Shown: piece after piece, positions 5,221 through 59,466 of the stretch
Numbering within the stretch: the first letter of the stretch is position 1
Layout of the letters: every line of letters starts with the position of its first letter
Source of the DNA: Patescibacteria group bacterium
GTDB lineage: Bacteria; Patescibacteriota; Minisyncoccia; UBA6257; 2-01-FULL-56-20
Reading direction: 5' to 3'
Assembly (NCBI GenBank): GCA_024654525.1
Contig: JANLHI010000022.1
Coordinates: forward strand, 3,931-67,930
DNA length: 64,000 nucleotides
Notes under the pieces: generated by a model
What the model was told of the DNA's origin: nothing
Database searches by the model: none
The model's input: the letters and a program-made list of their open reading frames with translations, nothing else
Translations under genes and position numbers: made by a program

Positions 5221-5463
5221 ATGCCGTATTTTGTGTATCTTATGGAATGTACGGACGGAAGTCTTTATACCGGCATTACGACCAACCTTGAAAGAAGGTT
5301 TGAAGAACACGTATCGCGCCACGGTGGAAATTATACTCGCGCTCATAAAGCGCGGAGGATTGTTTATACTGAAGAATATCCCTCGCGATCGGAAGCGCTG
5401 AAGCGCGAAGCGGAAATAAAAAGCTGGCAACGAAAGAAAAAACTTATGTTAATTAAAAAATAG
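5221..5463 (+). CDS. GIY-YIG nuclease family protein
   Basis: N-terminal YFVYLMECTDGSLYTGITTNLERRFEEH, the GIY-YIG signature. 80 aa. Confidence 0.8.
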   Translation: MPYFVYLMECTDGSLYTGITTNLERRFEEHVSRHGGNYTRAHKARRIVYTEEYPSRSEALKREAEIKSWQRKKKLMLIKK

Positions 5464-5485: not shown

Positions 5486-5953
5486 ATGGCTCATATCCAC
5501 GAAAAAATAGATTTCACCGCGAGCGCATACATCGTATACAAAAATACCGTGCTTCTCCGGAAACATGACAAATATGGCGCGTGGCTCGACGTCGGCGGGC
5601 ACATTGAACCCGATGAAGACCCCAATCAAGCCGTACTCCGAGAAGTAAAAGAGGAGGTGGGTCTCGATGTAATACTTGCGGGAAAAATTCGCACGTTCGA
5701 CAACGACTCCGAGACAGAACTCATACCCCCTCGCTTCCTCAATCGCCACCGCATCAACACCACGCATGAGCATATAGACCTCGTCTACTTTGCAACCAGC
5801 ACCACCAACATCATCAGAGAAACCGACGGGCGGGAAAAGAGCGAAGAAATAAGGTGGTTCACCAAAGAAGAACTTCTCGACCCCAAGCTCCAAATCTGGG
5901 AACGGGTACGGTACTATGCGCTCACGGCACTCGAGGAAATAGCCGGAAAATAA
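5486..5953 (+). CDS. NUDIX hydrolase
   Basis: Nudix box GGHIEPDEDPNQAVLREVKEEVGL. Confidence 0.85.
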   Translation: MAHIHEKIDFTASAYIVYKNTVLLRKHDKYGAWLDVGGHIEPDEDPNQAVLREVKEEVGLDVILAGKIRTFDNDSETELIPPRFLNRHRINTTHEHIDLVYFATSTTNIIRETDGREKSEEIRWFTKEELLDPKLQIWERVRYYALTALEEIAGK

Positions 5954-6977: not shown

Positions 6978-6978
6978 A

Positions 6979-7033
6979 AATAAAAGAAGCCTCACTCATC
7001 GTTAGACAAGCAAGGCTTCCCATGTTTTTTTGC
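6979..7033. repeat. Copy 1 of a 55-bp direct repeat containing a hairpin (GAAGCCT-20 nt-AGGCTTC) flanked by A/T runs. Bidirectional terminator-like.
   Basis: Identical 55 nt at 8366..8420. Sits between convergent M23 peptidase and minus-strand genes. Confidence 0.7.
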
Positions 7034-7542: not shown

Positions 7543-7581
7543 AAATAAAAAAACCAGGGACGATTATGGTAATCGTCCCGG
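7543..7581 (-). terminator. Intrinsic terminator (10-bp stem GGGACGATTA/TAATCGTCCC followed by a U-run)
   Basis: Hairpin at 7554..7581 with a run of A at 7544..7553 on the plus strand. Lies after the stop of the 229-aa gene. Confidence 0.6.
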
Positions 7582-7601: not shown

Positions 7602-8291
7602 TTAAGTCTCACAACTAGGAAATCCCCCCCAACTTTTAGGTCTTTCTAAACTTTGAATCCCCACGCGCTTATCACACGAGGGTGTGCCATAGTATAAGCT
7701 TGCATGCCTATCCTTATAAGTACACAAAACAGGAAAACCGTTACGAAGACAAATTCGCGGGGAACGCCTTGAAAGTTTTGGCACCTTATGTCGTGAGGCA
7801 TTGGCAATTATATTATGATGTCGTAACACAGGAAAAACTGAAGCATGGACAATACATTCAAAAACAGTGTATGAAAACCTTCCCTCACACGCAAGCTCCC
7901 GTAGAGATTCAATATGTTTCATATCCATACAAGCTCTTCCATCTTCAACATTAGTCGCAATATAAGGACCATCGGGAACCTGTACAAGATTGCGAATCTT
8001 CCCCGCTTCAAGATCATTCCAACCTCTTACTCCATCATCCCACACCAAAAAAGACATAAGACGACTTAAATCGAGCGGGTCGGGTCGTCTCGGGACAAGG
8101 AGAGTGAGTCCTTTTTCGGGTACGAATTCAGCAAGGCGGCGGAGTTCATCTTCGTCACCTAATCCGATGTCAACCCAAAACGCAATTTGATGATAAAAAA
8201 GTTCGCGTGGGGTTGGGACGAACAAAGATGGTGAATGAGAAATTATTATCTCTTCATACTGCTCAACGGTAATTATGGGAAATGCTTTCAT
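7602..8291 (-). CDS. Hypothetical protein (229 aa), no recognizable domain
   Basis: ORF track. A C7 homopolymer near the 3' end means the C-terminus may be frameshifted. Confidence 0.45.
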   Translation of the reverse strand: MKAFPIITVEQYEEIIISHSPSLFVPTPRELFYHQIAFWVDIGLGDEDELRRLAEFVPEKGLTLLVPRRPDPLDLSRLMSFLVWDDGVRGWNDLEAGKIRNLVQVPDGPYIATNVEDGRACMDMKHIESLRELACEGRFSYTVFECIVHASVFPVLRHHNIIANASRHKVPKLSRRSPRICLRNGFPVLCTYKDRHASLYYGTPSCDKRVGIQSLERPKSWGGFPSCET

Positions 8292-8365: not shown

Positions 8366-8420
8366 AAATAAAAGAAGCCTCACTCATCGTTAGACAAGCA
8401 AGGCTTCCCATGTTTTTTTG
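8366..8420. repeat. Copy 2 of the 55-bp direct repeat / bidirectional terminator
   Basis: Identical to 6979..7033. Lies immediately downstream of the metG stop. Confidence 0.7.
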
Positions 8421-8434
8421 TGCCATCACAGAGG

Positions 8435-10105
8435 CTACTCCCCCGCTTCGGCAAGTTGAATTTCTCCGAGAATCAATTCGTGATCCACTTTTGGTATCAG
8501 CGGTGTCGGTTGCCCGATGGGGGTGTTGGCGGCAAGCGGCGAATATCTCCAACTCACATCGTCCGTGCCTAGATAGGCATTTAGCCTCTCTGTTACACCT
8601 GGGAAGAATGGTGCGGTAAGACGCCGTAAGGCGTCCGCCACCTCCATGCACACTTTGAGTGTTTCGGCGACGTGCGCCTTGTTGCTCTCGATGTTTCTCC
8701 ATGGCGCGCGGTGCTCGATATAGACGTTTGCCTTCCGTGAGAAGTTGAGAATACTCACCAGCGCTTGCCTCAATTCTCCCTTTTCGATGAACGCCCCCAC
8801 TTCTCTTAACGCAGTGGGTGATGCCATCCAAAGAACAACACTTTCATCGCTTACCGGCACACCACTATTGGGCACGGCACCGAAGTACCGATGCGTCATC
8901 GAAAACGTGCGGTTCCAGAAGTTCCCGAGATTTCCAACCAAGTCGGCATTCACCCGTGCTTCGAAGTCATCCCACCGAAATGTACTGTCTTTGCTTTCCG
9001 GCGAGTTGAGTGTGAGGTAGAACCGGATTGCGTCCGGATCGAATTTTGCAAGCGCATTCGGCAACCAAATGCCGATATTCTTGCTCTTCGAAAGCTTCAC
9101 GCCTCCGAAGTTCAAGAACTCGCTTGAGATGATTCTGTTCGGGAGGTGAAGCCCGAGCGCCATGAGCATCGCCGGCCAAATGATGGTGTGAAACGGAATA
9201 TTATCCTTCCCGTGCACGTAATAGTGCACCGCCTCCGGATTATCCCACCATTCGCGCCACGCTTCGGGAAGCCCTTCGGTTTGAAGGGACGCCCATTCGC
9301 GCGAACAAGACAGGTAGCCAATCACCGCTTCAAACCACACATACATCACCTTCTCGGTGAACCCTTCAACCGGCACCGGAATACCCCATGAGAGGTCCCG
9401 CGTAATGGGCCGGTCTTCGAGTCCCTTGGTAAGCCACGCCTCGGTAATTTTCACCGCGTTTTCCCGCCATCCTTCTTTTGACTTCTCCTTCCACTCCGCA
9501 AGATGTTTTTGAAACGCGGGCAGATGGAGATAAAGGTGTGTCGAAGGTTTCCAGACCGGTGTTGCGCCACACGTTCTGCAATGGGGCGCGATAAGATCAT
9601 GCGGGGTATGAAGATGCCCGCATGTATCACACTGATCACCACGCGCACCTTCCACCCCACACTTTGGATTCGGACATTTTCCTTCAATAAACCGATCAGG
9701 AAGCGTGCGATTACAGGTGTCGCACCGCGCCTGCTGTTCTTCACGCGTAACCATGTGGCCATCCGCATGAAGCTTCGCAAACACTTCTTGTGCTACTCCC
9801 TTGTGGAAGGCACCCATTGTCTTTGAGTACAACGAGTAGCTGAAACCGAGTTTCTTGACGAGCGTTTCCACAATCTCATCGTGGTACTGACCCGCCACTT
9901 CTTCCGGTGCTCTTCCTTCTTTGTCCGCGGTCACAAGAATCGGGGTGCCGTGGCAATCACTACCGGAGACAAAAAGCACATCGTCTCCATTTGCACGGTG
10001 ATACCGCGCGAGCACATCCGCCGGCAGTAATGCCGCGACGTGCCCCAAATGCAGCGAGCCATTGACGTATGGCCATGCCGCCGCAACCAATACCTTTTTT
10101 TTCAT
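8435..10105 (-). CDS. metG: Methionyl-tRNA synthetase
   Basis: HLGH (HIGH-class) and KLSKSK (KMSKS) motifs. Zn-knuckle cysteines. 556 aa. RBS GGAGGAA precedes the ATG. Confidence 0.9.
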   Translation of the reverse strand: MKKKVLVAAAWPYVNGSLHLGHVAALLPADVLARYHRANGDDVLFVSGSDCHGTPILVTADKEGRAPEEVAGQYHDEIVETLVKKLGFSYSLYSKTMGAFHKGVAQEVFAKLHADGHMVTREEQQARCDTCNRTLPDRFIEGKCPNPKCGVEGARGDQCDTCGHLHTPHDLIAPHCRTCGATPVWKPSTHLYLHLPAFQKHLAEWKEKSKEGWRENAVKITEAWLTKGLEDRPITRDLSWGIPVPVEGFTEKVMYVWFEAVIGYLSCSREWASLQTEGLPEAWREWWDNPEAVHYYVHGKDNIPFHTIIWPAMLMALGLHLPNRIISSEFLNFGGVKLSKSKNIGIWLPNALAKFDPDAIRFYLTLNSPESKDSTFRWDDFEARVNADLVGNLGNFWNRTFSMTHRYFGAVPNSGVPVSDESVVLWMASPTALREVGAFIEKGELRQALVSILNFSRKANVYIEHRAPWRNIESNKAHVAETLKVCMEVADALRRLTAPFFPGVTERLNAYLGTDDVSWRYSPLAANTPIGQPTPLIPKVDHELILGEIQLAEAGE

Positions 10106-10207
10106 ACTGATTCCTCCATATTAACTTGTTAAGGTCGTGCTGACGGCACGATTTTTCTTTTAAAGAACGCACACGCGTCCCCATTGAAAAACCGCCGAAG
10201 CAAGGAA

Positions 10208-10278
10208 TGACTGGGATGGGACTTGAACCCACAACCGGGTACTTATGAAGCACCTGCTCTACCTTGAGCTACCCAGTC
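10208..10278 (-). tRNA. tRNA-Met (anticodon CAT), elongator type. CCA not encoded.
   Basis: Manual cloverleaf: 7-bp acceptor with G1-C72, U8, D-stem GCTC/GAGC, anticodon loop TTCATAA, T-loop TTCAAGT, 71 nt. Not initiator-like: 1-72 are paired and there is no GGG/CCC run in the anticodon stem. Confidence 0.85.
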
Positions 10279-10388
10279 ATTGCGAAGCAAACGTATCACA
10301 AAATACCATCGCCAACAAGCGGAATGAGAGAACGCCCAACCCGAAGGTTGAGCGTTCAATGATTCTGAAATCCAAACAAACCACATGT

Positions 10389-11330
10389 CTAGACCGCGAC
10401 TAGATCGGCATTCCGCGTGACCCTTGATGCCCATGGCGCCGGAGCTTCCGGACGGTAGTGCCGGAACTGACCCATCCCGGCACCGATCTCTGTCCCGAGA
10501 CTGTGGAACTGGTACACATCCAATCCTCCTTGCGCGCAAATTTGCTCGAACGCATGGTGATTGGCGGATTCCGCGAAACCCGTCTCGGAGACAGGCGAGA
10601 ATCGTGACAGGCGTAGTCGGACAGGTAAACCGTTCAATAGTCCGACTAATTCTTCGGCATGCGCTTCCGCATCGTTGACGTCCTTGAGCAGGACATAATT
10701 TAGGACAACCCTCGTTCGGAGGGTGTCCGCGTATTCCACCGCGGCGGCGAGCACTTCGCCAATCGGGTATTGCCGTGTGATTGGCATCAGTTCCGTTCGC
10801 AGCTCATCGTTCGGCGCATGGAGCGACACCCGAAGCTGGAGGTTCGTCATGCGAAGACCCACGAGTTTGCGAATGCCGGGAGCAATCCCGACGGTCGAGA
10901 TGACAACCCGCATGTCGGGAGAAATGTGCTCCAACGCACTTTTCACCGCGCTGAAATTCAGCAACGGTTCTCCCATTCCGGTGAAAGAGACCTCGAGGCC
11001 TCGCGCCGGATATTGCGTATCGCCGAGCATCCCGTTGACTTGAAGGATAATCTCGTCGCCAGTCAGATTGCGTACGATTCCCTGCAAACCCGTGGCGCAA
11101 AACGCACACTTCATCGCGCAACCGATTTGGCTGGAGATGCACAGCGAATCGTACTCACGAGTTCTGAACTGGAGGTGAGCGCTTTCGACCGTATGTCCGT
11201 CACGGGTAGCCCAAACGTACTTTGTTACTACGCTACTTTCGGCTTTTGCCTGTAAGGACATTCGGCTCGCCGTATTGTTGATGTTATGCCCGCCGATGGT
11301 TTCCATCGAACGAGCGTTTCGCATGCCCAT
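10389..11330 (-). CDS. RlmN/Cfr-family radical SAM enzyme, N-terminally short. The ORF track start at 11429 is probably an over-extension.
   Basis: CISSQIGCAMKCAFCATG (CxxxCxxC), MGMGEPLLN and SLHAPNDELR match RlmN. GC about 62 %. A candidate start, MGMRNAR at 11330, lies inside inverted repeat A. An alternative start is at 11261. Confidence 0.75.
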   Translation of the reverse strand: MGMRNARSMETIGGHNINNTASRMSLQAKAESSVVTKYVWATRDGHTVESAHLQFRTREYDSLCISSQIGCAMKCAFCATGLQGIVRNLTGDEIILQVNGMLGDTQYPARGLEVSFTGMGEPLLNFSAVKSALEHISPDMRVVISTVGIAPGIRKLVGLRMTNLQLRVSLHAPNDELRTELMPITRQYPIGEVLAAAVEYADTLRTRVVLNYVLLKDVNDAEAHAEELVGLLNGLPVRLRLSRFSPVSETGFAESANHHAFEQICAQGGLDVYQFHSLGTEIGAGMGQFRHYRPEAPAPWASRVTRNADLVAV

Positions 11331-11343
11331 AGCATGCCCGTCT
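11310..11343. repeat. Inverted repeat A (34 bp), a perfect reverse complement of 12741..12774
   Basis: AGACGGGCATGCTATGGGCATGCGAAACGCTCGT on the minus strand. Covers -13 to +21 of the radical SAM start codon. Confidence 0.9.
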
Positions 11344-11674
11344 AGAATACATGTGGTATTCATAATTGTTAACGTACTGCGTACGACTCCCTTTATGAAG
11401 AATGATTTCCTATGGGGTCGCGCGTGCAACCCTCACAGCGTCTTACGACATTCATAATAAAGAGCCGTATAGAAATAATAGGAGTGCTTATAGAAAAGCG
11501 CAAACATGGAAACTGTGTGTATCTCGGATATCCTTTATAAATAGCTCATTACCGAACAAAAAAGCTATGTATAACAGCTGAAATGGCAAGCCGGCTAACC
11601 CATAAACATAGATTAGCCGACAAGGCATTATTTTCGAACATAATTCAGTTCTTCGACAGAGCGGTAACCGCTAT

Positions 11675-12457
11675 TCACAAATGATTTTTCATGCGCCCAA
11701 GCATAAATGCATGATCCCTCGGGTCGTACTTGCGCATGTAATATCGACATCTCAACTCTCTTCTCTCAATTACTCTGGGACGAGCGCATAAGCTGCAAAA
11801 CACGAATGGATACATCCTAAAAAAATCTGCAGATACGCGATCCCGAGAAAGGACTGCCGAATACTGGTGGCAACATTTACTTGCACACTCATCGCACACA
11901 GCTTCGTTTGGAGATAATTTATAGGAGTAATCCAACATTGCATCGCCACATTGTTTGCAACGAATTCCGCCCGTAACAACAACCGCCCGTTTTCCTTCAA
12001 AATCAGTTTCACCAAGAAAAACCAGCTTTCTACCACCATAGCGAGCAGTATTATTAAGATCATCAAGCACTTTTTCATCATCTCTCGTACTCCCGCACAG
12101 AAAGATAATGCGCCCTTGTTGCCTCAATTTCGAAAAAGCTTCTCTAAAAACCTCTTCATTATTGAATGTAGCAGTGGTAATTTTCTTACCATCAGTTATA
12201 ACAGTGCCAATTGAGTTCGAATTCAAACTGCAAAGCTCTAAACTGACTTCGTTAAAAGAACCGCCACAAGGATTCTGAAAAAGAACCCAGAGAGATTTCT
12301 CACTACCAGTTACATTGTTCACACACATCCATGAGATATGCTTAATCGAATCTCCCGGCTTGAGTACCTCAACAACAGCGATAATATCTTCAGCCTCACC
12401 CGTTTCAATCGGCACCAATGTATAAGTCGCCGTTTCTTCATCACAGATAATTTTCAT
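11675..12457 (-). CDS. Hypothetical 260-aa protein with C-terminal CxxC..CxxC zinc ribbon and an Arg/Cys-rich basic tail
   Basis: RBS AAGGA 8 nt before ATG 12457 (MKIICDEE). The ORF track version (start 12652) has an implausible N-terminus. About 40 % GC, unlike its flanks. Confidence 0.5.
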   Translation of the reverse strand: MKIICDEETATYTLVPIETGEAEDIIAVVEVLKPGDSIKHISWMCVNNVTGSEKSLWVLFQNPCGGSFNEVSLELCSLNSNSIGTVITDGKKITTATFNNEEVFREAFSKLRQQGRIIFLCGSTRDDEKVLDDLNNTARYGGRKLVFLGETDFEGKRAVVVTGGIRCKQCGDAMLDYSYKLSPNEAVCDECASKCCHQYSAVLSRDRVSADFFRMYPFVFCSLCARPRVIERRELRCRYYMRKYDPRDHAFMLGRMKNHL

Positions 12458-12576
12458 AACATAATTCCTTTTTGAAATTTTCAATTTGCGCAAACGGTGA
12501 AGAATTGAGTGTAGCAAGCAGAACATCAAATGACAACCAGCTACAAGAGAATAAAACGCCAGACTTAGCAACCCCG

Positions 12577-12604
12577 TTGACACACCAAAAAAAAGTACTA
12601 TTAT
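12577..12604 (+). promoter_or_regulatory. Sigma70-like promoter (TTGACA-16-TATTAT) about 150 nt upstream of metK
   Basis: Sequence match only. Confidence 0.45.
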
Positions 12605-12740
12605 CCCCTTACAATCCTTATTGTACGCACCGCAAGGTGCTGCGTGAATCAACTTTGTTGATTTCGTAGGAAATTATTTCTTTACAAGAAGAGTTGCAAC
12701 GTTTAGTTCATTCAAAACTTATGAGTACTCCAAGTACCCA

Positions 12741-12774
12741 AGACGGGCATGCTATGGGCATGCGAAACGCTCGT
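12741..12774. repeat. Inverted repeat B (34 bp)
   Basis: Identical to the reverse complement of 11310..11343. Covers -13 to +21 of the metK start (ATG 12754). Confidence 0.9.
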
Positions 12775-13860
12775 GTTGTGGCGGTTGAATTCGTCACGCC
12801 CGGGCATCCAGATAAGGTCTGCGATCAAATTGGAGACAGTATCCTTGACGCCGCAATCACTCAAGATCCACTTTCGCGAGTTGCCCTTGAGACAACCGGC
12901 GGACATGGTCTCGTGATGGTAAATGGCGAGATGACTACCAAAGCCGACCTCGATATTGTTAGCATCGTGCAAAGAAAGTATGCCGAAATTGGACATGACC
13001 GTTCCATCGAAGTACTCCTTCGCATCGTTCAGCAGTCTCCGGACATTGCACAGGGAGTTGACGACTGTGCTGCCGCTGGCAAAGACAGCGATGAACAAGG
13101 AGCGGGAGATCAGGGAGTCATGGTGGGTTACGCCATCGGTGGCGAGGCAAACTTCATGCCGCAGGCATATAACCTCGCAAAAGCGCTCACTGACCGACTA
13201 ACGGAAGTGAGAGTTCGAGGGATTCTCCCTCACGTAAAGGCTGACGGCAAAAGCCAGGTCACTTTGGTGAACGGCGTTGTCACTCGCGTGACCATCGCCG
13301 CACATCACAGCGACACAGTCGGGCTTGAACAACTGCGCGCAGATATTCTCAAAGATGTCGTGCAGGTGGTCATCCCCGGAATCAACGGCGACGCTGTCAC
13401 CATCAACGGCACCGGAAAGTTCGTGCAAGGCGGTTTCGAAGCTGACGCGGGAACTACCGGTCGCAAATTGGCAGTGGACAATTATGGTCCTCTGGTTGAA
13501 ATCGGCGGCGGATGCTATTCGGGAAAGGATCCTTCGAAAGTGGATCGGAGTGCGGCATATTTCTGCCGGATGGTGGCAAAGGCCATTGTTGCGGGAGGCC
13601 ACGCGAACGAAGCAGTCGTGAAGGTGGGCTACGCCATCGGCGTCGCAAAACCGACATTCCTGTCGGTGCTGACTCCTCTTGATGGAGAAGCGGCCGAAAA
13701 ATTCGAAGCGCATGTGCTGTCGAAGTTCGATTTTCGGCCCAAAGCCATCATCGAACGTCTCGGGCTCCGGAAACCCGACGGCTGGTGCTATGCCGACACT
13801 GCCGCAGCGGGTCACTACGGGGATGACCGGTTCCCGTGGGAAAAAGTGGTGGAGATCTAA
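12754..13860 (+). CDS. metK: S-adenosylmethionine synthetase
   Basis: GHPDKVCDQIGD, GGGCYSGKDPSKVDRSAAY. GC about 62 %. The ORF track start at 12694 is probably over-extended. MGMRNAR..VEFVTPGHPDK aligns with the MetK N-terminus. Confidence 0.9.
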   Translation: MGMRNARVVAVEFVTPGHPDKVCDQIGDSILDAAITQDPLSRVALETTGGHGLVMVNGEMTTKADLDIVSIVQRKYAEIGHDRSIEVLLRIVQQSPDIAQGVDDCAAAGKDSDEQGAGDQGVMVGYAIGGEANFMPQAYNLAKALTDRLTEVRVRGILPHVKADGKSQVTLVNGVVTRVTIAAHHSDTVGLEQLRADILKDVVQVVIPGINGDAVTINGTGKFVQGGFEADAGTTGRKLAVDNYGPLVEIGGGCYSGKDPSKVDRSAAYFCRMVAKAIVAGGHANEAVVKVGYAIGVAKPTFLSVLTPLDGEAAEKFEAHVLSKFDFRPKAIIERLGLRKPDGWCYADTAAAGHYGDDRFPWEKVVEI

Positions 13861-13900: not shown

Positions 13901-13941
13901 ACAAAAAAGTGCCTTCGCTCACGCGAAGGTACTTTAATTTT
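13901..13941. terminator. Bidirectional intrinsic terminator (CCTTCGC-tcac-GCGAAGG flanked by A- and T-runs)
   Basis: Lies between convergent metK (+) and the NUDIX gene (-). Confidence 0.55.
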
Positions 13942-42141: not shown

Positions 42142-43497
42142 TTACCGACTCCGTCGAGAGTGACCACTGAATCCGGGACGAGGAGAAGAATTGCCGAAGC
42201 CACCTCGTGAGGGCGGGCGACGTCCGAAACTCGGACGAGGATATGGTGAAGAAGAAGTGGAGGAATAAGGACGAGCGCTGGTGCGACCATAGTTACTGCG
42301 TGGCGCAGAAGAAGAAAACCGCGGACTGCGATTTCCAAATCTTTGAAACGGTTCGCGTTCCGGCATCGTTTCTGCACGTGCGGGAGGAAGATCTTCGGGA
42401 AGTTTTGAAAGCGGGAGCGTCGAACGAATAAGACGCTCAATACTTCGCACACCTCCTTTTTCATTCGGCGTTGCAAATGATACTGCGTGTCCCACACCAC
42501 CCATGCGTCCCGTGCGCCCGATGCGATGCACATAATCCTCCGCACTTGCGGGTAAATCATAGTTCACCACAAGCGCGATTCCCTTTACATCAATACCGCG
42601 TGCAGCGATATCCGTTGCTACAAGTATTCGATATCTCCCATTTTTAAATCCTTCAAGCGCTTCCTTCCGTTGCATAAGCGAACGATTCGAATGAATCTCG
42701 GCGGCACTATGCCCCAACACGCGCAACCCCGCCGCAATCCGTTTTGCGCTATATTTCATTCTCGCAAAAATCAAAGTTGAACCCTTTCCTTCCGCAAGAA
42801 TTTTCTCAAGAAGGCGCGATTTATCCTGTCGTTGCACAAAGAAAACTTCCTGCGTCACTTTTTCTGCCGCAGTACCTTGCGGTGCGATCTCCACGCGCAC
42901 GGGTAACTTCATATGCGCACGTGCAATACGCACTATGTCTTCCGGCATCGTTGCGGAAAAAAGCAATGTCTGTCGTGCATCGGGCGGGGGCAATACCGAA
43001 AGAATACGTTTCAATTGCGGAGCAAATCCCATGTCAAACATCCTATCCGCCTCGTCGAGTGTAAGAATCTTCACTCCGCTCAACGATACTGTTTTTTGCT
43101 CCAAGTGATCAATAATTCTCCCCGGCGTACCGATAACCACATGCGGGTTTCGGCGAAGCTGTTGTAATTGCCTTCCAATCGCTTCCCCCCCGATAAGCAC
43201 CACAGATTTTATACCCAAAGGAACACCCACTTTCCCAAATGTTTCTTGTACTTGCAACGCCAATTCGCGCGTAGGTACCACAATAAGCCCCTTATCACCG
43301 CGAAGCGCCGCTTGTATCATTGGAATCGCAAATGCCAAGGTTTTTCCTGTTCCCGTTTGTGCAATACCCACCAAATCCTTTCCTTCGATCGAAGAAGGAA
43401 TGGATCGTTCTTGAATAGGCGTAGGTGTAGTAAACCCCGATTTCTCAAGTATATCTAAAATATTCGGCGCAATGCCAAGACTCTGAAAGTTACTCAT
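42142..43497 (-). CDS. DEAD-box ATP-dependent RNA helicase with C-terminal RG/S-rich tail
   Basis: Q-motif/GKT (AQTGTGKTLAF), DEAD (LDEADRM), SAT, HRIGRTGR. Confidence 0.9.
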   Translation of the reverse strand: MSNFQSLGIAPNILDILEKSGFTTPTPIQERSIPSSIEGKDLVGIAQTGTGKTLAFAIPMIQAALRGDKGLIVVPTRELALQVQETFGKVGVPLGIKSVVLIGGEAIGRQLQQLRRNPHVVIGTPGRIIDHLEQKTVSLSGVKILTLDEADRMFDMGFAPQLKRILSVLPPPDARQTLLFSATMPEDIVRIARAHMKLPVRVEIAPQGTAAEKVTQEVFFVQRQDKSRLLEKILAEGKGSTLIFARMKYSAKRIAAGLRVLGHSAAEIHSNRSLMQRKEALEGFKNGRYRILVATDIAARGIDVKGIALVVNYDLPASAEDYVHRIGRTGRMGGVGHAVSFATPNEKGGVRSIERLIRSTLPLSKLPEDLPPARAETMPEREPFQRFGNRSPRFSSSAPRSNYGRTSARPYSSTSSSPYPRPSFGRRPPSRGGFGNSSPRPGFSGHSRRSR

Positions 43498-56766: not shown

Positions 56767-58092
56767 TTACGGTCTGTAACGCAATGATTTTGCACCAATA
56801 TCTTTTCGGTAATACATTCCCTCAAAATGAATCTTCCCCACTGCCTGATATGCCTTGTCGAGTGCTTCTTTCAAAGTCTTGCCTATGGCAGTAACACCCA
56901 ATACTCGCCCACCAGACGTAACTAATTTTTCACCCTCTAGTTTCGTTCCCGCGTGAAAGACCACTACACCTGGTATTTTCTCAGCTTCTTCGATACCAGT
57001 GATTTCTTTTCCTTTTTCATAACTACCTGGATACCCTTTACTGCAAAGAATAACACAGCACGCAAACCCAGGGTTCCACTCTATATTCACATTCTCAAGT
57101 GTCCCTTCAATGCACGCCTCGACGATATCCAATAAATCGGTTTTAAGGAGTCGCATATAACTCTGCGTTTCCGGGTCTCCAAAACGAGCATTAAACTCGA
57201 GCGTCTTTACACCACCCGAACTCATCTTGAGACCCGGATACAAACACCCTGCGAACGGATATCCCTTCGCTTTCATTCCTATGAGCGCAGGCGCGACGAT
57301 TCGCTTTTCAAATTCGACGAGCATCTCCGCCGTCACCCACGGCAAAGGCGCGATGGTACCCATGCCTCCCGTGTTCGATCCCGTATCATTCTCGCCTATG
57401 GGCTTATGATCCTGTGCCGTCGGGAAAAGCGAATACGAAACACCATCCGAAAACACATGAAGTGAAATTTCCTGCCCATCCAAATACTCCTCAATTACCA
57501 CTTCCGCTCCCGCCGCACCAAACATTTTCTCCGCCATTATTCTTTGTAAAGCTTCTTCCGCCTCGCTCATCGTTTCACACACAAAAACACCTTTTCCTAA
57601 CGCGAGTCCGCTCGCCTTCACCACAATCGGCGCGCTCCGCGATGCGAGATATTTTTTTGCGGCTTCATAATCGGAAAAAGTTTTAAACTCCGCCGTAGGA
57701 ATCCCCGCCTCTGCCATAAATTGCTTCGAAAATACTTTTGACGCCTCGATTTCCGCCGCGGCTTTTGTGGGACCAAAGGCGGGAATGCCTTTTGCCCGAA
57801 GCACGTCTATAAGCCCCAGCGCAAGCGCATCGTCGGGACCCACCACCACGCAATCCACTCTTCTCTCCACCGCAAACGCGGTGAGTTTCTCGATATACGT
57901 CGCAACAATAGGCACATTCTCGCCCAACAATTTCGTGCCGCCGTTCCCCGGCGCAATATAAAGCTTCTCCACGCGCAACGATTGCGCAAGTTTCCACGCA
58001 AGCGCGTGTTCGCGCCCGCCAGAACCAACAACTAATATTGTTTTTCCACTACTCATTATTTTGGTTGTATCCCCAACTTTCCGGCAACCCAC
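56767..58092 (-). CDS. purD: Phosphoribosylamine-glycine ligase
   Basis: ATP-grasp GARS. Probable start MSSGKTILVVGSGGREHA at 58056. Confidence 0.9.
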   Translation of the reverse strand: MGCRKVGDTTKIMSSGKTILVVGSGGREHALAWKLAQSLRVEKLYIAPGNGGTKLLGENVPIVATYIEKLTAFAVERRVDCVVVGPDDALALGLIDVLRAKGIPAFGPTKAAAEIEASKVFSKQFMAEAGIPTAEFKTFSDYEAAKKYLASRSAPIVVKASGLALGKGVFVCETMSEAEEALQRIMAEKMFGAAGAEVVIEEYLDGQEISLHVFSDGVSYSLFPTAQDHKPIGENDTGSNTGGMGTIAPLPWVTAEMLVEFEKRIVAPALIGMKAKGYPFAGCLYPGLKMSSGGVKTLEFNARFGDPETQSYMRLLKTDLLDIVEACIEGTLENVNIEWNPGFACCVILCSKGYPGSYEKGKEITGIEEAEKIPGVVVFHAGTKLEGEKLVTSGGRVLGVTAIGKTLKEALDKAYQAVGKIHFEGMYYRKDIGAKSLRYRP

Positions 58093-58691
58093 AATATAAA
58101 ATCCAATTTTTTAGAATCAGGAATTGGACAATCACTAAACTTTTTATTGAAAACCAATAACATATTTTTACATCTCCCATCAATCCGCATCTGCTTATAA
58201 AAATCTTTGAGTGTTGTGTAATAACTCAAGTACTTTTCAATCCTCTTATATTTTGACGGATAACCGAAACCAAATATATGAGATATCTTTGAATCATAAA
58301 TGGGATATTCTGGATTTATCATATTTAGTAGTTTTGTAGTAAATGAGAACTGGACAGCATTACGTCCTTGCACATCTTCAAAACTCTGTAATTCTAGCAA
58401 TATTTTTGCTACATCTTTATCGGTAAAAGATTCTTTTTTCCGAAAATACTGCATCAACTCAAAATACTCATGTTTGAATTCAGGTGATAACCCAGCTCTA
58501 TCTAATCCATAATATGAACGAAATACAAATTGAAAAACAAAATTATTTCTTACATCTCCCTTTTTGAACTCCGCCGTTAAGAATTTATACACATGCACAT
58601 CTTCGCACTCAATCAATGCAACAATTCTATGAATATTATTACTTATAAACAAAATTATTTCCTCTAGACTTCGCATATAAGTTTTCTTCAT
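58056..58691 (-). CDS. Hypothetical 211-aa protein translationally coupled between purN and purD
   Basis: ATG at 58691 lies 1 nt after the purN stop. Its stop overlaps the purD ATG as TAATG. Confidence 0.5.
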   Translation of the reverse strand: MKKTYMRSLEEIILFISNNIHRIVALIECEDVHVYKFLTAEFKKGDVRNNFVFQFVFRSYYGLDRAGLSPEFKHEYFELMQYFRKKESFTDKDVAKILLELQSFEDVQGRNAVQFSFTTKLLNMINPEYPIYDSKISHIFGFGYPSKYKRIEKYLSYYTTLKDFYKQMRIDGRCKNMLLVFNKKFSDCPIPDSKKLDFILWVAGKLGIQPK

Positions 58692-58692
58692 A

Positions 58693-59466
58693 TTACCCGT
58701 TCGGAAACATCTCGACTGCCCTTCGCTTTGCTTCTTCAAGAATCTGCTCCTCGCCGGGGAGAATGAGCGGCTTTCCTCTCACAATTTCTTTTACCGCGCC
58801 TTTCGCAAACATTTCAATCGTTTCAATCTGCACCTTATGCTCTACCGGCAATGCGCGGGCGGCAAGCGTTTCTGGCGTATCATCTTCTAAAATAGAAACT
58901 TGCTTTGCGTGTAATACTGCGCCTTTGTCATATTCGGTAGTCACGCGATGCGCCGTCATCTCTGTCCAAAAGTCCCGCTGCACCGCACGAACAAAAAATA
59001 ATCGTGCCGCATGCACACGCTTCCCATACATTCCTTTTCCACCGAAATCCGGCCGCCCCGGGTCAAGCGGGCCCGGATGTTGGTTTACAATCCTTCCCTC
59101 AAACGCCGCGATTACATTTTCCGGAGTTTTCACAAGCCAACCATATTGCCCCACAAAATCTACTCCACGCGCACGACATTCTTTGATAATCGACTCACCA
59201 AACTCATCACGCGAAGGAAACGCTTTTGGTGAAAGCACTATCACATCTTTTTTTGGCACGCCTGCGCGTTTCACGCGTTCGATACCGCCCGCCTCGGGTT
59301 TGCTCGCAATCACACACGCCACTTCCACGCCCGAAAGCCGTCCCATCTGTGTCGCGCGAATAATCGCCTCCGCAGTAGTCCCCCCGCCGGAAAGTAAAAT
59401 CGCAATTCTCATTATATTAAAATTCATTCTACCTTTTCTCATCCAAAAACTCGACAAGCACGCCAT
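58693..59466 (-). CDS. purN: Phosphoribosylglycinamide formyltransferase
   Basis: MRIAILLSGGGTTAEAII, NQHPGPL. Probable start at 59412 or 59427. Confidence 0.85.
   Translation of the reverse strand: MACLSSFWMRKGRMNFNIMRIAILLSGGGTTAEAIIRATQMGRLSGVEVACVIASKPEAGGIERVKRAGVPKKDVIVLSPKAFPSRDEFGESIIKECRARGVDFVGQYGWLVKTPENVIAAFEGRIVNQHPGPLDPGRPDFGGKGMYGKRVHAARLFFVRAVQRDFWTEMTAHRVTTEYDKGAVLHAKQVSILEDDTPETLAARALPVEHKVQIETIEMFAKGAVKEIVRGKPLILPGEEQILEEAKRRAVEMFPNG

What the first reader, a model, noticed from the sequence alone, without database searches (positions are those of the whole stretch)
8435..13860. GC-rich methionine/SAM-themed block (metG, tRNA-Met, RlmN-like, Zn-ribbon gene, metK) in an AT-richer genome
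Hand counts of 60-nt windows give about 55-62 % GC for metG, the radical SAM gene and metK. Most other genes in the window give about 38-47 %. Some genes between 4.6 and 7 kb reach about 50-55 %. Every gene in the block concerns methionine: Met-tRNA synthetase, elongator tRNA-Met(CAU), a SAM-dependent RlmN-like enzyme and SAM synthetase. A tRNA gene in the middle is a classic island integration hotspot. The left edge coincides with the duplicated 55-bp terminator repeat. This could be a horizontally acquired methionine module, possibly of mobile-element or phage origin, or it could reflect expression-linked composition.
Basis: partly seen in the sequence, partly recalled or inferred. Interest (0 to 1): 0.6.

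Follow-up and report, generated by a model that had tools for sequence, protein, structure and literature searches.

The report
Conserved methionine/SAM module, not an island
The GC-rich methionine genes are a native gene module shared by a group of ultrasmall (Patescibacteria) bacteria, not a recently imported island, and their GC excess looks like gene-specific codon preference; the unexpected part is an unlisted 85-base folded RNA leader in front of the SAM synthetase gene that was copied, promoter included, in front of an atypical radical-SAM gene.

Summary
metG, the radical-SAM gene and metK are the three most GC-rich of 63 ORFs in the window (54-56 % against 45.4 ± 3.6 %; GC3 0.57-0.63 against 0.45). 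The block is two GC-rich segments split by an AT-rich stretch (40.5 %) that holds the Zn-ribbon ORF.

A foreign island is not supported. The closest MetG and MetK relatives are all Patescibacteria. The unit metK <-> tRNA-Met -> metG recurs in at least seven related genomes with unrelated flanks. In most of them, met genes sit above their own genome's GC3 whether the background is 0.45 or 0.61; an unrelated contig at 0.22 shows the same offset. The shift is mainly NNC over NNU and ATC, the signature of codon selection. There is no integrase, no att repeat and no close phage relative. Old transfer of the module within the phylum stays possible.

New here:
- An 85-nt four-way-junction leader precedes metK. 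It has seven instances, 16 of 33 pairs show compensatory changes, and it has no Rfam match.
- The metK promoter, leader and first 19 codons are duplicated in front of the RlmN-like gene.
- That RlmN-like protein lacks the N-terminal domain and has Met where the methyl-carrier Cys355 should be.

The parts
6978..7032 (.). Copy 1 of a perfect 55-nt repeat. It is a hairpin flanked by A/T runs, a terminator-like element readable on both strands, directly after the stop of the M23 peptidase gene.
   Evidence: 2 matches, 0 expected by chance; fold; terminator scan
7602..8291 (-). 229-aa DUF5701-like ORF. It is AT-rich (GC3 0.32) and lies inside the segment bracketed by the two 55-nt repeats. A 41 % identical homologue sits between metK and metG in relative L026.
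   Evidence: (weak PF18959 match)
8366..8420 (.). Copy 2 of the 55-nt repeat. It serves as the terminator just downstream of metG and marks the left edge of the GC-rich segment.
8435..10105 (-). metG, methionyl-tRNA synthetase, 556 aa. It has HLGH and KLSKS motifs and zinc knuckles, and lacks a C-terminal tRNA-binding extension. GC 0.538, GC3 0.596.
10106..10206 (-). Spacer between tRNA-Met and metG, conserved in relatives. A short UUCG hairpin followed by a U-run lies right after the tRNA, and a GGAGG Shine-Dalgarno sequence precedes the metG ATG.
10207..10279 (-). tRNA-Met(CAU), not an initiator, no encoded CCA. It is a conserved member of the module rather than an integration site.
10389..11363 (-). 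Atypical RlmN-like radical-SAM gene: 324 aa from the first ATG, or 305 aa from the ATG at 11306 as NCBI calls it. It has CX3CX2C and the Cys118 equivalent, but no RlmN N-terminal domain, and Met replaces the methyl-carrier Cys355. Its first 19 codons are a copy of the metK 5' end. GC 0.560, GC3 0.631.
11382..11469 (-). Copy A of the 85-nt four-way-junction leader RNA, upstream of the radical-SAM gene. The -10 box TATTAT is kept just upstream and the -35 box is degenerate.
   Evidence: (76.5 bits)
11675..12460 (-). AT-rich ORF with CxxC pairs, the 'Zn-ribbon gene': 261 aa from ATG, or 325 aa from an upstream TTG at 12652. It matches no Pfam, NCBIfam, PHROG or PADLOC family. A weak (27 %) relative lies upstream of metG in L025. 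It sits between the two inverted copies of the metK leader.
12577..12604 (+). Sigma-70-like promoter TTGACA-16-TATTAT (11 of 12 matches), the best site in 6.9-14.1 kb. It is conserved in relatives and places the transcript start at the first base of the leader.
12610..12698 (+). Copy B of the 85-nt four-way-junction leader RNA, upstream of metK.
   Evidence: (72.2 bits)
12721..13860 (+). metK, SAM synthetase, 379 aa. It carries a clade-specific N-terminal extension ending in MGMR.AR. GC 0.554, GC3 0.568.
13912..13929 (.). GC-rich hairpin with flanking T/A runs between metK and the convergent NUDIX gene. It acts as a terminator and marks the right edge of the GC-rich segment.

Best explanation
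The block is a native methionine/SAM module shared by one clade of Patescibacteria. Its core is metK, transcribed divergently from tRNA-Met followed by metG. The GC excess is a property of these genes, not a mark of foreign DNA. About half of it comes from amino-acid composition (raised GC1 and GC2). The other half comes from synonymous codon choice, mainly C-ending NNY codons and ATC, plus G-ending four-fold codons in metG. That is the pattern expected for strongly expressed, translationally selected genes (inferred; expression was not measured). In this genome alone, the gap between tRNA-Met and metK gained two genes: an atypical RlmN-like radical-SAM gene and an AT-rich Zn-ribbon ORF. During that event the metK promoter, its 5' leader and its first 19 codons were duplicated in inverted orientation. 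The radical-SAM gene is therefore now driven by a copy of the metK control region. That region contains a conserved 85-nt four-way-junction RNA, which I take to be a cis-regulatory element coupling both genes to the same signal. The most plausible signal is SAM or methionine status (inferred, not shown).
For: Module membership and ancestry:
1. The window's MetG is 100 % identical to an NCBI 'Patescibacteria group bacterium' MAG protein. Its best hits (78, 74, 73 ... 53 %) include Berkelbacteria and Falkowbacteria, every hit above about 48 % that carries a taxon name is Patescibacteria, and Bacillota, Paenibacillus and a deltaproteobacterial MAG appear among the hits only at about 45-46 %.
2. 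metK and metG are adjacent in L001, L002/L003/L032, L004/L005, L027, L033 and L035. They are separated by cargo genes in L026, and metG lies next to cargo genes in L025. The outer flanks are unrelated.
3. tRNA-Met(CAU) accompanies the pair in seven genomes.
4. MetK identities parallel MetG identities: 70/74, 68/74, 57/66, 61/60 and 58/62 %.

Composition:
5. The GC3 of the met genes exceeds the local background in hosts of different composition. Window: 0.57-0.60 (metG, metK) against 0.45. L001: 0.58-0.66 against about 0.45. L002: 0.61-0.70 against about 0.45. L035: 0.56-0.64 against 0.45-0.54. L027: 0.78-0.90 against about 0.61. The unrelated AT-rich contig L028: 0.38-0.39 against about 0.22.
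6. Codon asymmetry in the window: NNC/(NNC+NNU) is 0.55 against 0.32 and ATC is 0.54 against 0.23, while NNG/(NNG+NNA) is 0.39 against 0.35. L001, L002 and L028 show the same direction.
7. The first RSCU principal axis is a C-ending axis. metK and the radical-SAM gene lie on it beside the class I aldolase.

Absence of mobility signals:
8. No integrase, att repeat, PHROG or PADLOC hit, and no close phage relative.

Insertion and duplication:
9. L033 (MetG 79 %) has the plain metG <- tRNA-Met | metK layout without the two extra genes.
10. The inverted repeat 11310-11370 / 12714-12774 and alignments A1-A4 show the duplicated promoter, leader and 5' coding sequence, with a 34-nt perfect core.

Leader RNA:
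11. Each copy folds alone into the same multi-branch shape, z -2.9 to -6.1.
12. A covariance model built from five copies found new hits exactly upstream of metK in L035 (65 bits) and L036 (50 bits).
13. In the seven-sequence alignment, 92.6 % of cells pair and 16 of 33 pairs carry double changes, against 7.7 ± 1.9 in shuffles (0 of 500) and 2-4 in the slid controls.
Against: 1. Expression was not measured. No ribosomal-protein, EF-Tu or other benchmark gene of this genome is in the window, so the link to expression is indirect.
2. Two or three relatives show little or no elevation: L026, L036, and L004 for metG.
3. metG owes more to G-ending than to C-ending codons, and it sits mid-range on the RSCU axis.
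4. In L027 and L002 the G-ending purine codons rise as well. That also fits a general pressure towards GC.
5. The module-type MetG forms its own clade, apart from the MetG of other Parcubacteria-group genomes (45-48 %). Berkelbacteria is sister to the window's subclade. The window's IMPDH, by contrast, is closest to Paceibacterota and Liptonbacteria proteins. This patchiness suggests past lateral movement of the module within the phylum.
6. An RlmN-like enzyme is not an obvious highly expressed gene, yet it has the highest GC3 of all.
7. The leader is known from only seven closely related instances, and the covariance model finds nothing in more distant module carriers.
Confidence: 0.6

Rival explanations
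1. The metK/tRNA-Met/metG module moves horizontally between Patescibacteria lineages. Its GC excess would then be the not-yet-ameliorated signature of GC-richer donors, such as genomes like L027 (59 % GC) or L031 (65 % GC).
For: 1. The module-type MetG clade is patchy. Two NCBI 'Falkowbacteria' MAGs carry MetG of different clades (62 % and 48 % to the window). Berkelbacteria (66 %) is closer to the window than other Parcubacteria-group MetG (45-48 %). The window's IMPDH points instead to Paceibacterota and Liptonbacteria.
2. The flanks of the module are not syntenic in any pair of genomes.
3. GC-rich contigs carrying clade-type MetK exist.
4. The gap between metK and metG is a variable cargo site.
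Against: 1. The closest known relatives are only 78-79 % identical in protein, so synonymous sites are saturated. A donor signature should have decayed by now.
2. Even in the GC-rich host L027 the module exceeds its own flanks (0.78-0.90 against 0.61). This needs a gene-specific force in any case.
3. The unrelated contig L028 shows the same offset for its metK and metG.
4. The codon shift in the window is asymmetric, with C-ending codons raised and G-ending purine codons unchanged.
5. No mobility genes or repeats bound the module.
Confidence: 0.2
2. GC-biased gene conversion. The module would be a recombination hot spot, and repeated homologous exchange would have driven its synonymous sites towards G and C.
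For: 1. There are signs of recombination around the module: the inverted duplication of the metK 5' region with a 34-nt perfect core, the 55-nt perfect direct repeats, and variable cargo in relatives.
2. In L002 and L027 both G- and C-ending codons rise.
Against: 1. In the window and in L028 the purine-ending two-fold codons barely move (0.39 against 0.35; 0.28 against 0.22), while C-ending pyrimidine codons rise strongly.
2. The cargo genes lying inside the same region (the Zn-ribbon ORF and the DUF5701-like ORF) are AT-rich.
3. No population data are available.
Confidence: 0.08
3. A genomic island of phage or mobile-element origin, integrated at the tRNA-Met gene.
For: A tRNA gene lies in the middle of a compositionally deviant block, and a perfect 55-nt repeat sits at its left edge.
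Against: 1. The tRNA is a conserved part of the module in relatives.
2. The tRNA 3' end has no second copy in the window.
3. No integrase, transposase or phage-family proteins were found.
4. Phage MetK and MetG hits reach only 30-45 % identity, and the IMG/VR scan found nothing.
5. The 55-nt repeats bracket the neighbouring AT-rich DUF5701 segment, not the GC-rich block.
Confidence: 0.03

Closest known systems
Expression-linked codon bias in bacterial housekeeping genes (translational selection for C-ending NNY codons)
   Same: The GC3 excess is confined to particular conserved genes. It follows the host background with a positive offset. It is dominated by NNC over NNU and by ATC.
   Different: No expression data or reference set of highly expressed genes is available for this genome. 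metG leans on G-ending four-fold codons. Some relatives show no offset.
tRNA-linked genomic islands and horizontally acquired gene cassettes
   Same: The block deviates in composition, contains a tRNA gene, and has non-syntenic flanks and a variable cargo site.
   Different: There is no integrase, no att duplication and no foreign phylogenetic affinity. The tRNA is a conserved cargo-independent member of the unit.
SAM-responsive riboswitches upstream of metK (SAM-I/S-box, SAM-IV, SMK box, SAM-VI; Rfam)
   Same: It is a structured, covarying 5' leader directly upstream of metK. Like SAM-I it is built as a four-way junction. It precedes two SAM-related genes in one genome.
   Different: It matches no Rfam family even at E up to 10 on the isolated leader. 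The junction has almost no unpaired nucleotides. No ligand has been tested. It is known only from seven instances in one subclade.
RlmN/Cfr radical-SAM RNA methyl synthases
   Same: It shares the radical-SAM core with CX3CX2C and the LC(I/V)SSQ cysteine (the Cys118 equivalent). It is 34-46 % identical to RlmN and Cfr, and its best PDB matches are 6fz6, 9p0p and 3rf9.
   Different: The N-terminal PF21016 domain is absent. Met replaces the transiently methylated Cys355 in the AACGQL motif. It scores below the TIGR00048 cut-off. Only 5 of 266 family members examined share the Met (role of Cys355 from PMC4689488).

Membership tests
tRNA-integrated genomic island / prophage remnant | An integrase or recombinase gene next to the tRNA or at an island edge | tested here: not met
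   Pfam scans of the ORFs between 1.7 and 17.8 kb found none. The only nuclease-like hit is an 80-aa GIY-YIG protein at 5221-5463. The cargo ORFs have no PHROG hits.
tRNA-integrated genomic island / prophage remnant | A direct repeat of the tRNA 3' end (attL/attR) bounding the island | tested here: not met
   The 22-nt 3' end of tRNA-Met occurs once in the 64-kb window, even when 3 mismatches are allowed.
tRNA-integrated genomic island / prophage remnant | Island genes absent from close relatives, or showing foreign phylogenetic affinity | tested here: not met
   metK, metG and tRNA-Met are present together in related Patescibacteria, and the nearest homologues are all Patescibacteria. Only the radical-SAM gene and the Zn-ribbon ORF are missing from the closest relative, L033.
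tRNA-integrated genomic island / prophage remnant | Base composition that deviates from the host | tested here: met
   GC 0.54-0.56 against 0.454 ± 0.036, z 2.3-3.0.
Methionyl-tRNA synthetase (TIGR00398 / PF09334) | Score above the curated cut-off, plus the class I HIGH and KMSKS motifs | tested here: met
   483 bits against a cut-off of 336. HLGH at residue 19 and KLSKS at residue 337.
S-adenosylmethionine synthetase MetK (TIGR01034) | Score above the curated cut-off, with all three MAT domains | tested here: met
   350.6 bits against a cut-off of 309.4. PF00438, PF02772 and PF02773 are all present.
RlmN/Cfr radical-SAM methyl synthase | The radical-SAM CX3CX2C cluster motif | tested here: met
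   GCAMKCAFC is invariant in alignment A7.
RlmN/Cfr radical-SAM methyl synthase | The methyl-carrier cysteine (E. coli RlmN Cys355, Cfr Cys338) in the AACGQL motif | tested here: not met
   The motif reads GAGMGQF. Met aligns with the Cys of 6fz6 and 9p0p. Met occurs in 5 and Cys in 247 of the 266 family hits examined. The role of Cys355 is taken from PMC4689488.
RlmN/Cfr radical-SAM methyl synthase | The RlmN N-terminal RNA-binding domain (PF21016) and a score above the family cut-off | tested here: not met
   PF21016 is absent from this protein and its short relatives. TIGR00048 scores 217 bits, below the 290-bit cut-off.
Known SAM riboswitch classes (Rfam) | A match to a curated covariance model | tested here: not met
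   No hit at E up to 1 over 7.0-15.5 kb, and none at E up to 10 on the isolated leader. Only chance-level hits appear in L001.
Riboswitch / cis-regulatory leader RNA (generic) | A conserved secondary structure supported by covariation, located in the 5' UTR of a metabolically coherent gene set | tested here: met
   Seven instances, all directly upstream of metK or of the SAM-dependent radical-SAM gene. 16 of 33 pairs show compensatory changes, and the controls are far lower.
Riboswitch / cis-regulatory leader RNA (generic) | Direct, selective ligand binding that changes gene expression | not testable with these tools
   This needs in-line probing, ITC or reporter assays.

The most novel reading that the evidence does not exclude
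The 85-nt four-way-junction leader is a new class of SAM- or methionine-responsive riboswitch confined to a Patescibacteria subclade. In this genome it was copied together with the metK promoter and start region, which recruited a mechanistically aberrant RlmN-like radical-SAM enzyme (Met in place of the methyl-carrier Cys355, no RNA-binding N-domain) into the same regulon. The space between metK and metG would then act as a collecting site for SAM-consuming enzymes, on a module that also spreads laterally within the phylum.
Probability: 0.22. Interest if true: 0.7.

Novelty: new variant of a known kind. Interest (0 to 1): 0.4.

Why it matters
For the finding as given, the result is a caution. 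A compositionally deviant, tRNA-containing, functionally themed block can look like an island and still be a vertically maintained module with gene-specific codon bias.

The by-products matter more.
1. No natural riboswitch or structured leader specific to Patescibacteria turned up in three full-text literature searches. This motif is a concrete, testable candidate upstream of the central SAM-producing gene.
2. The duplication of promoter, leader and first codons shows how a regulon can grow by copying a control region.
3. A small clade of RlmN-like proteins has Met at the methyl-carrier cysteine position. This challenges the accepted ping-pong mechanism and points to a different chemistry or substrate.

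Tried and rejected
1. Look-up of the window's own MetG found no encoding contig on record.
It gave no close relatives and no host taxonomy.
3. The IMG/VR scan with MetK found no relative. tblastn of MetK and MetG against 50,697 phage records gave only generic hits of 30-45 %. I rejected a phage origin.
4. Rfam gave only the tRNA, plus chance-level sRNA hits on the metK terminator.
5. Covariance model R1 found nothing upstream of metK in the more distant module carriers L002, L004, L027, L031 and L032. Their long leaders fold, but differently. I therefore do not claim the motif beyond the subclade.
6. I considered that the conserved stretch at the metK start might be non-coding. Relatives change it synonymously and keep the peptide MGMR.AR.MA.EFVT, so it is coding. 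Excess codon-level conservation there is weak: 3 of 6 against 21 of 187 invariant-residue codons.
7. I considered tRNA mimicry by the leader and rejected it. The P3 loop is not conserved and holds CAU in only one copy.
8. The AlphaFold2 model of the Zn-ribbon ORF, made without an alignment, had pLDDT 33 and was unusable, so no fold search was run.
9. PHROG and PADLOC scans of the cargo ORFs found nothing meaningful.
10. The metagenome pattern scan for the MetK N-terminal motif returned only four loci.

Full report
1. THE OBSERVATION

The window has 45.8 % GC. I called 63 non-overlapping ORFs mechanically. The 60 outside the block average GC 0.454 (sd 0.036) and GC3 0.448 (sd 0.057).

| Gene | Coordinates | GC | GC3 |
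|---|---|---|---|
| metG | 8435-10105, - | 0.538 | 0.596 |
| radical-SAM gene | 10389-11363, - | 0.560 | 0.631 |
| metK | 12721-13860, + | 0.554 | 0.568 |

These three rank first to third in GC, and first, second and fourth in GC3.

The elevation is not continuous.

| Segment | GC |
|---|---|
| 8435-11363 | 53.9 % |
| 11364-12720 | 40.5 % |
| 12721-13860 | 55.4 % |
| rest of the window | 45.4 % |

The transitions are sharp and fall at the gene ends. The Zn-ribbon ORF in the middle is among the more AT-rich genes (GC3 0.37).

About 45 % of the excess sits at codon positions 1 and 2. Block GC1 is 0.59-0.67 against 0.53, and GC2 is 0.43-0.44 against 0.38. The remainder is at position 3.

2. GENE IDENTITIES

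- MetRS is secure. PF09334 has E 9e-141, TIGR00398 scores 483 bits against a cut-off of 336, and the HLGH and KLSKS motifs and zinc knuckles are present.
- MetK is secure. All three MAT domains are present and TIGR01034 scores 350 bits against a cut-off of 309.
- The tRNA is tRNA-Met(CAU). It has a fully paired 1:72 end and no GGG/CCC in the anticodon stem. By the established bacterial initiator rules it is not an initiator (sequence). A tRNA-Ile2 read through lysidine cannot be excluded.
- The radical-SAM protein resembles RlmN and Cfr but fails their definition (section 8).

3. WHERE THE BLOCK COMES FROM

The window's MetG is identical to a protein of an NCBI 'Patescibacteria group bacterium' MAG on a 75,091-bp contig. 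Its best hits run from 78 % down to 53 %. They include Berkelbacteria GW2011_GWA2_46_7 (66 %) and a Falkowbacteria MAG (62 %). Every hit above about 48 % that carries a taxon name is Patescibacteria. Other Patescibacteria, Bacillota, Paenibacillus and a deltaproteobacterial MAG all sit at 45-48 %.

I fetched the contigs of these relatives.
- metK and metG are adjacent and divergent in L001, L002/L003/L032, L004/L005, L027, L033 and L035.
- They are separated by cargo genes in L026. In L025, cargo genes lie directly upstream of metG.
- The pair is rearranged in L036.
- A tRNA-Met(CAU) gene accompanies the pair in seven genomes, usually directly upstream of metG, as in the window.
- MetK identities to the window track MetG identities: 70/74, 68/74, 57/66, 61/60 and 58/62 %.
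- The outer flanks are unrelated in every pair. tblastn with 18 window proteins found nothing shared beyond the module and two cargo genes.

The neighbourhood repeatedly carries further methionine and SAM genes. These are Cys_Met_Meta_PP, homocysteine S-methyltransferase, SAM hydroxide adenosyltransferase, AdoMet decarboxylase, and TehB-like and PrmA-like methyltransferases. The methionine theme is therefore a conserved functional neighbourhood, and the tRNA is one of its members.

4. IS THE GC EXCESS FOREIGN?

The key comparison is the GC3 of the met genes against their own flanks in hosts of different composition.

| Locus | Met-gene GC3 | Flank GC3 |
|---|---|---|
| window (metG, metK) | 0.57-0.60 | 0.45 |
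| L001 | 0.58-0.66 | mostly 0.29-0.53 |
| L002 | 0.61-0.70 | 0.30-0.53 |
| L035 | 0.56-0.64 | 0.45-0.54 |
| L027 (59 % GC contig) | 0.78-0.90 | 0.59-0.63 |
| L028 (unrelated, 36.6 % GC; MetG 27 % identical) | 0.38-0.39 | 0.20-0.36 |

The offset is weak or absent in L004, L026 and L036.

The relatives differ by 21-40 % at the protein level, so their synonymous sites are saturated. A shared donor signature could not persist under those conditions. A positive offset that follows each host's background needs a gene-specific force.

The codon detail agrees.

| Measure in the window | Module | Flanks |
|---|---|---|
| NNC share of two-fold pyrimidine codons | 0.55 | 0.32 |
| ATC share of Ile codons | 0.54 | 0.23 |
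| NNG share of two-fold purine codons | 0.39 | 0.35 |

L001, L002 and L028 behave alike, although purine codons rise too in L002 and L027.

The first principal axis of RSCU in the window explains 17 % of the variance. It is a C-ending axis. metK and the radical-SAM gene lie on it beside the class I fructose-bisphosphate aldolase, an inositol monophosphatase and a NUDIX gene. metG lies mid-range because it prefers G-ending four-fold codons.

This asymmetry is what established work on translational selection predicts. A uniform GC-rich donor or mutational bias does not predict it.

5. MOBILITY SIGNALS

None were found.
- There is no integrase or transposase among the ORFs scanned between 1.7 and 17.8 kb.
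- The tRNA 3' end has no second copy.
- The cargo ORFs have no meaningful PHROG or PADLOC hits.
- The IMG/VR scan with MetK found no relative.
- Phage records hold only generic 30-45 % MetK and MetG homologues.

6. WHAT REMAINS OF THE HGT IDEA

The control protein IMPDH has its best named relatives in Paceibacterota and Liptonbacteria (72 %). An NJ tree, without bootstrap, shows three things.
- The module-type MetG (P0001-P0025) forms a separate clade from the MetG of Moraniibacteriota, Portnoybacteria and a second Falkowbacteria MAG.
- Berkelbacteria is sister to the window's subclade.
- Two 'Falkowbacteria' MAGs carry MetG of different clades.

This patchiness, together with the non-syntenic flanks, leaves room for old lateral spread of the module within the phylum. 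That event would be too old to explain today's composition. I give this rival 0.2, biased gene conversion 0.08, and a phage or island origin 0.03.

7. THE LOCAL REARRANGEMENT AND THE LEADER RNA

The closest relative with both genes on one contig is L033 (MetG 79 %). It has metG <- tRNA-Met, a 560-bp spacer, then metK. In the window, the radical-SAM gene and the Zn-ribbon ORF lie in that spacer.

A 61-nt inverted repeat (11310-11370 against 12714-12774, 85 %) led to the finding that the whole metK control region is duplicated in front of the radical-SAM gene. The duplicated part comprises the -10 box, about 110 nt of leader, the ATG and 19 codons, and it includes a 34-nt perfect core. Both proteins would start M.T....DGHAMGMRNAR. 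NCBI instead calls the radical-SAM protein from the next ATG, giving 305 aa.

The peptide MGMR.AR.MA.EFVT is conserved in distant MetKs through synonymous changes, so it is genuine MetK coding sequence.

Upstream of metK lies the best sigma-70-like site of the region: TTGACA-16-TATTAT at 12577-12604, conserved in relatives. The transcript would start at the first base of an 85-nt element.

Evidence that the element is a real structured RNA:
- In each of five copies the minimum-free-energy fold alone is the same. A long closing helix P1 encloses hairpins P2, P3 and a short P4. The z-scores run from -2.9 to -6.1.
- RNAalifold gives a four-way junction.
- On the five-sequence alignment, 95.7 % of cells pair and 15 of 33 pairs have changes on both sides. 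Shuffles give 7.2 ± 1.8 and the slid controls give 0-3.
- A covariance model built from those five sequences then found two sequences it had never seen. Both lie exactly upstream of metK: L035 at 65 bits and L036 at 50 bits. L036 has a rearranged locus.
- With seven sequences, 92.6 % of cells pair and 16 of 33 pairs are compensatory. No shuffle out of 500 reaches that value. That alignment is fitted to the model.

P1 (inner part), P2 and P3 are supported by covariation. P4 is not.

The two copies inside the window differ throughout P2 and P3 yet keep the pairing. That argues that both copies are under selection.

No Rfam family matches, even at E up to 10 on the isolated leader. The model finds nothing in the more distant module carriers, whose long leaders fold differently.

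The 3' strand of P1 is a purine-rich, Shine-Dalgarno-like tract lying 24-36 nt before the ATG. metK has no Shine-Dalgarno sequence next to its ATG, whereas metG has GGAGG.

RNAalifold also pairs the start codon region (AUGAGU) with GCUCGU, around an invariant GCAUGCU/GGCAUGC hairpin. That part does not vary, so it is untested.

What is shown and what is inferred:
- Shown: a conserved, covarying, promoter-proximal RNA sits in front of metK, and a copy sits in front of a SAM-dependent enzyme gene.
- Inferred: it regulates both genes, most plausibly in response to SAM or methionine status, by controlling ribosome access.

8. THE RADICAL-SAM PROTEIN

It belongs to a small set of short (277-321 aa) RlmN-like proteins that lack the N-terminal domain PF21016. 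It keeps CX3CX2C and the LCISSQ cysteine. At the AACGQL motif, however, it reads GAGMGQF.

The cysteine of that motif is Cys355 of E. coli RlmN and Cys338 of Cfr. It is the residue that is transiently methylated and donates the methyl group (PMC4689488).

Among 266 family hits examined, 247 have Cys. Only five have Met: the window's protein and P0122-P0125. In a library of 1.84 billion representatives, only one sequence is at least 50 % identical.

One Met-type homologue, P0123, lies in an operon metK-metG-methyltransferase-rSAM-PfkB on the unrelated AT-rich contig L028. There it has background composition. Another, P0125, lies near NUDIX and PfkB genes.

The link to metK therefore recurs. The enzyme should not be annotated as RlmN. 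Its gene was probably acquired by this lineage.

9. THE LEFT EDGE

The perfect 55-nt repeats are terminator hairpins. They bracket a 1.33-kb AT-rich segment containing the DUF5701-like ORF, not the GC-rich block. A homologue of that ORF lies between metK and metG in L026, so it belongs to the same pool of cargo genes.

10. VERDICT

- The island interpretation is not supported.
- The composition-by-selection interpretation is the best supported, but it is unproven without whole-genome and expression data.
- The most interesting content lies beside the original claim: the new leader RNA, its duplication, and the Cys-to-Met RlmN-like enzyme.

Noticed in passing
window 6978-7032 and 8366-8420 (segment 7033-8365 between them): Perfect 55-nt direct repeats of a bidirectional terminator bracket a 1.33-kb AT-rich segment. 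The segment holds a DUF5701-like ORF (7602-8291, with its own terminator at 7557-7579) and about 520 nt with only doubtful ORFs. It looks like a cassette inserted between the M23 peptidase gene and metG, with duplication of the terminator. The mechanism is unknown.
   Followed up: partly
window 10389-11363 (-), residues ~295-301 (GAGMGQF): The RlmN-like protein has Met at the position of the methyl-carrier Cys355. Only 5 of 266 family members examined share this. Another Met-type member sits in a metK-metG-MTase-rSAM-PfkB operon (L028 8001-8903). The side chain of Met is itself an S-methyl thioether, which raises the question of a different or single-turnover chemistry.
   Followed up: partly
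window 10106-10206 (-): The spacer between tRNA-Met and metG is conserved in L001, L026 and L033. Directly after the tRNA comes a CUGC-UUCG-GCAG-type hairpin followed by about five U, which could be an attenuator or a processing signal. Further pairings follow. The evidence is modest (covariation term +0.9).
   Followed up: partly
window 42840-42885 (-), inside the DEAD-box helicase gene: The leader covariance model gives a partial hit (P2-P4 only, 15.6 bits, E 0.11). The hit includes GCACCGCAAGGUACUGCG, which is 17 of 18 identical to P2 of the metK leader. It is probably chance, but the similarity is notable.
   Followed up: no
window 28.5-64 kb: There is a long run of purine-nucleotide biosynthesis genes on the minus strand. 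Confirmed by search: PurH (AICARFT/IMPCHase), SAICAR synthetase, a formyltransferase and IMP dehydrogenase. Several neighbours look like purB, guaA, purD, purE, purM, purF, purQ and purL from their N-termini only, and were not scanned. From general knowledge, de novo purine synthesis is unusual for Patescibacteria.
   Followed up: partly
window 58056-58739 (-): This is the most AT-rich ORF of the window (GC 0.317, GC3 0.298), wedged inside the purine gene run. It is a stronger compositional outlier, in the opposite direction, than the block under study.
   Followed up: no
window 5486-5953 (+): This NUDIX gene has the most extreme C-ending codon bias in the window (RSCU PC1 4.8; C at 51 % of four-fold sites; GC3 0.59). 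It shows that the bias is not confined to the methionine block.
   Followed up: partly
L026 5600-5830 and 8570-8783; L025 1567-1785; L033 1445-1684 (-): A small conserved ORF family of about 70-80 aa (…HWSV…LVRAMN..L.P.G..RGSNHN.W..PL) recurs next to the module. It is present twice in L026, where the copies bracket DUF5701-tRNA-Met-metG. It is absent from the window.
   Followed up: partly
L025, L026, L028, L036 (UCP032817-like, TehB-like methyltransferase, DUF5701); L026, L035, L036 (homocysteine S-methyltransferase plus a ~285-aa unknown); L001 (SAM_HAT_C); L026 (AdoMet_dc, PrmA-like): The gap between metK and metG and its surroundings collect a recurring set of SAM-using or SAM-recycling genes in different combinations. 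This suggests a cargo hot spot organised around SAM supply.
   Followed up: partly
L031 830-3773: A 65 % GC metagenome contig carries a clade-type MetK with the MGMRKAR N-terminus (61 % identical). It is followed in the same direction by a quite different MetG (38 %). MetK and MetG can therefore be uncoupled in some genomes.
   Followed up: no
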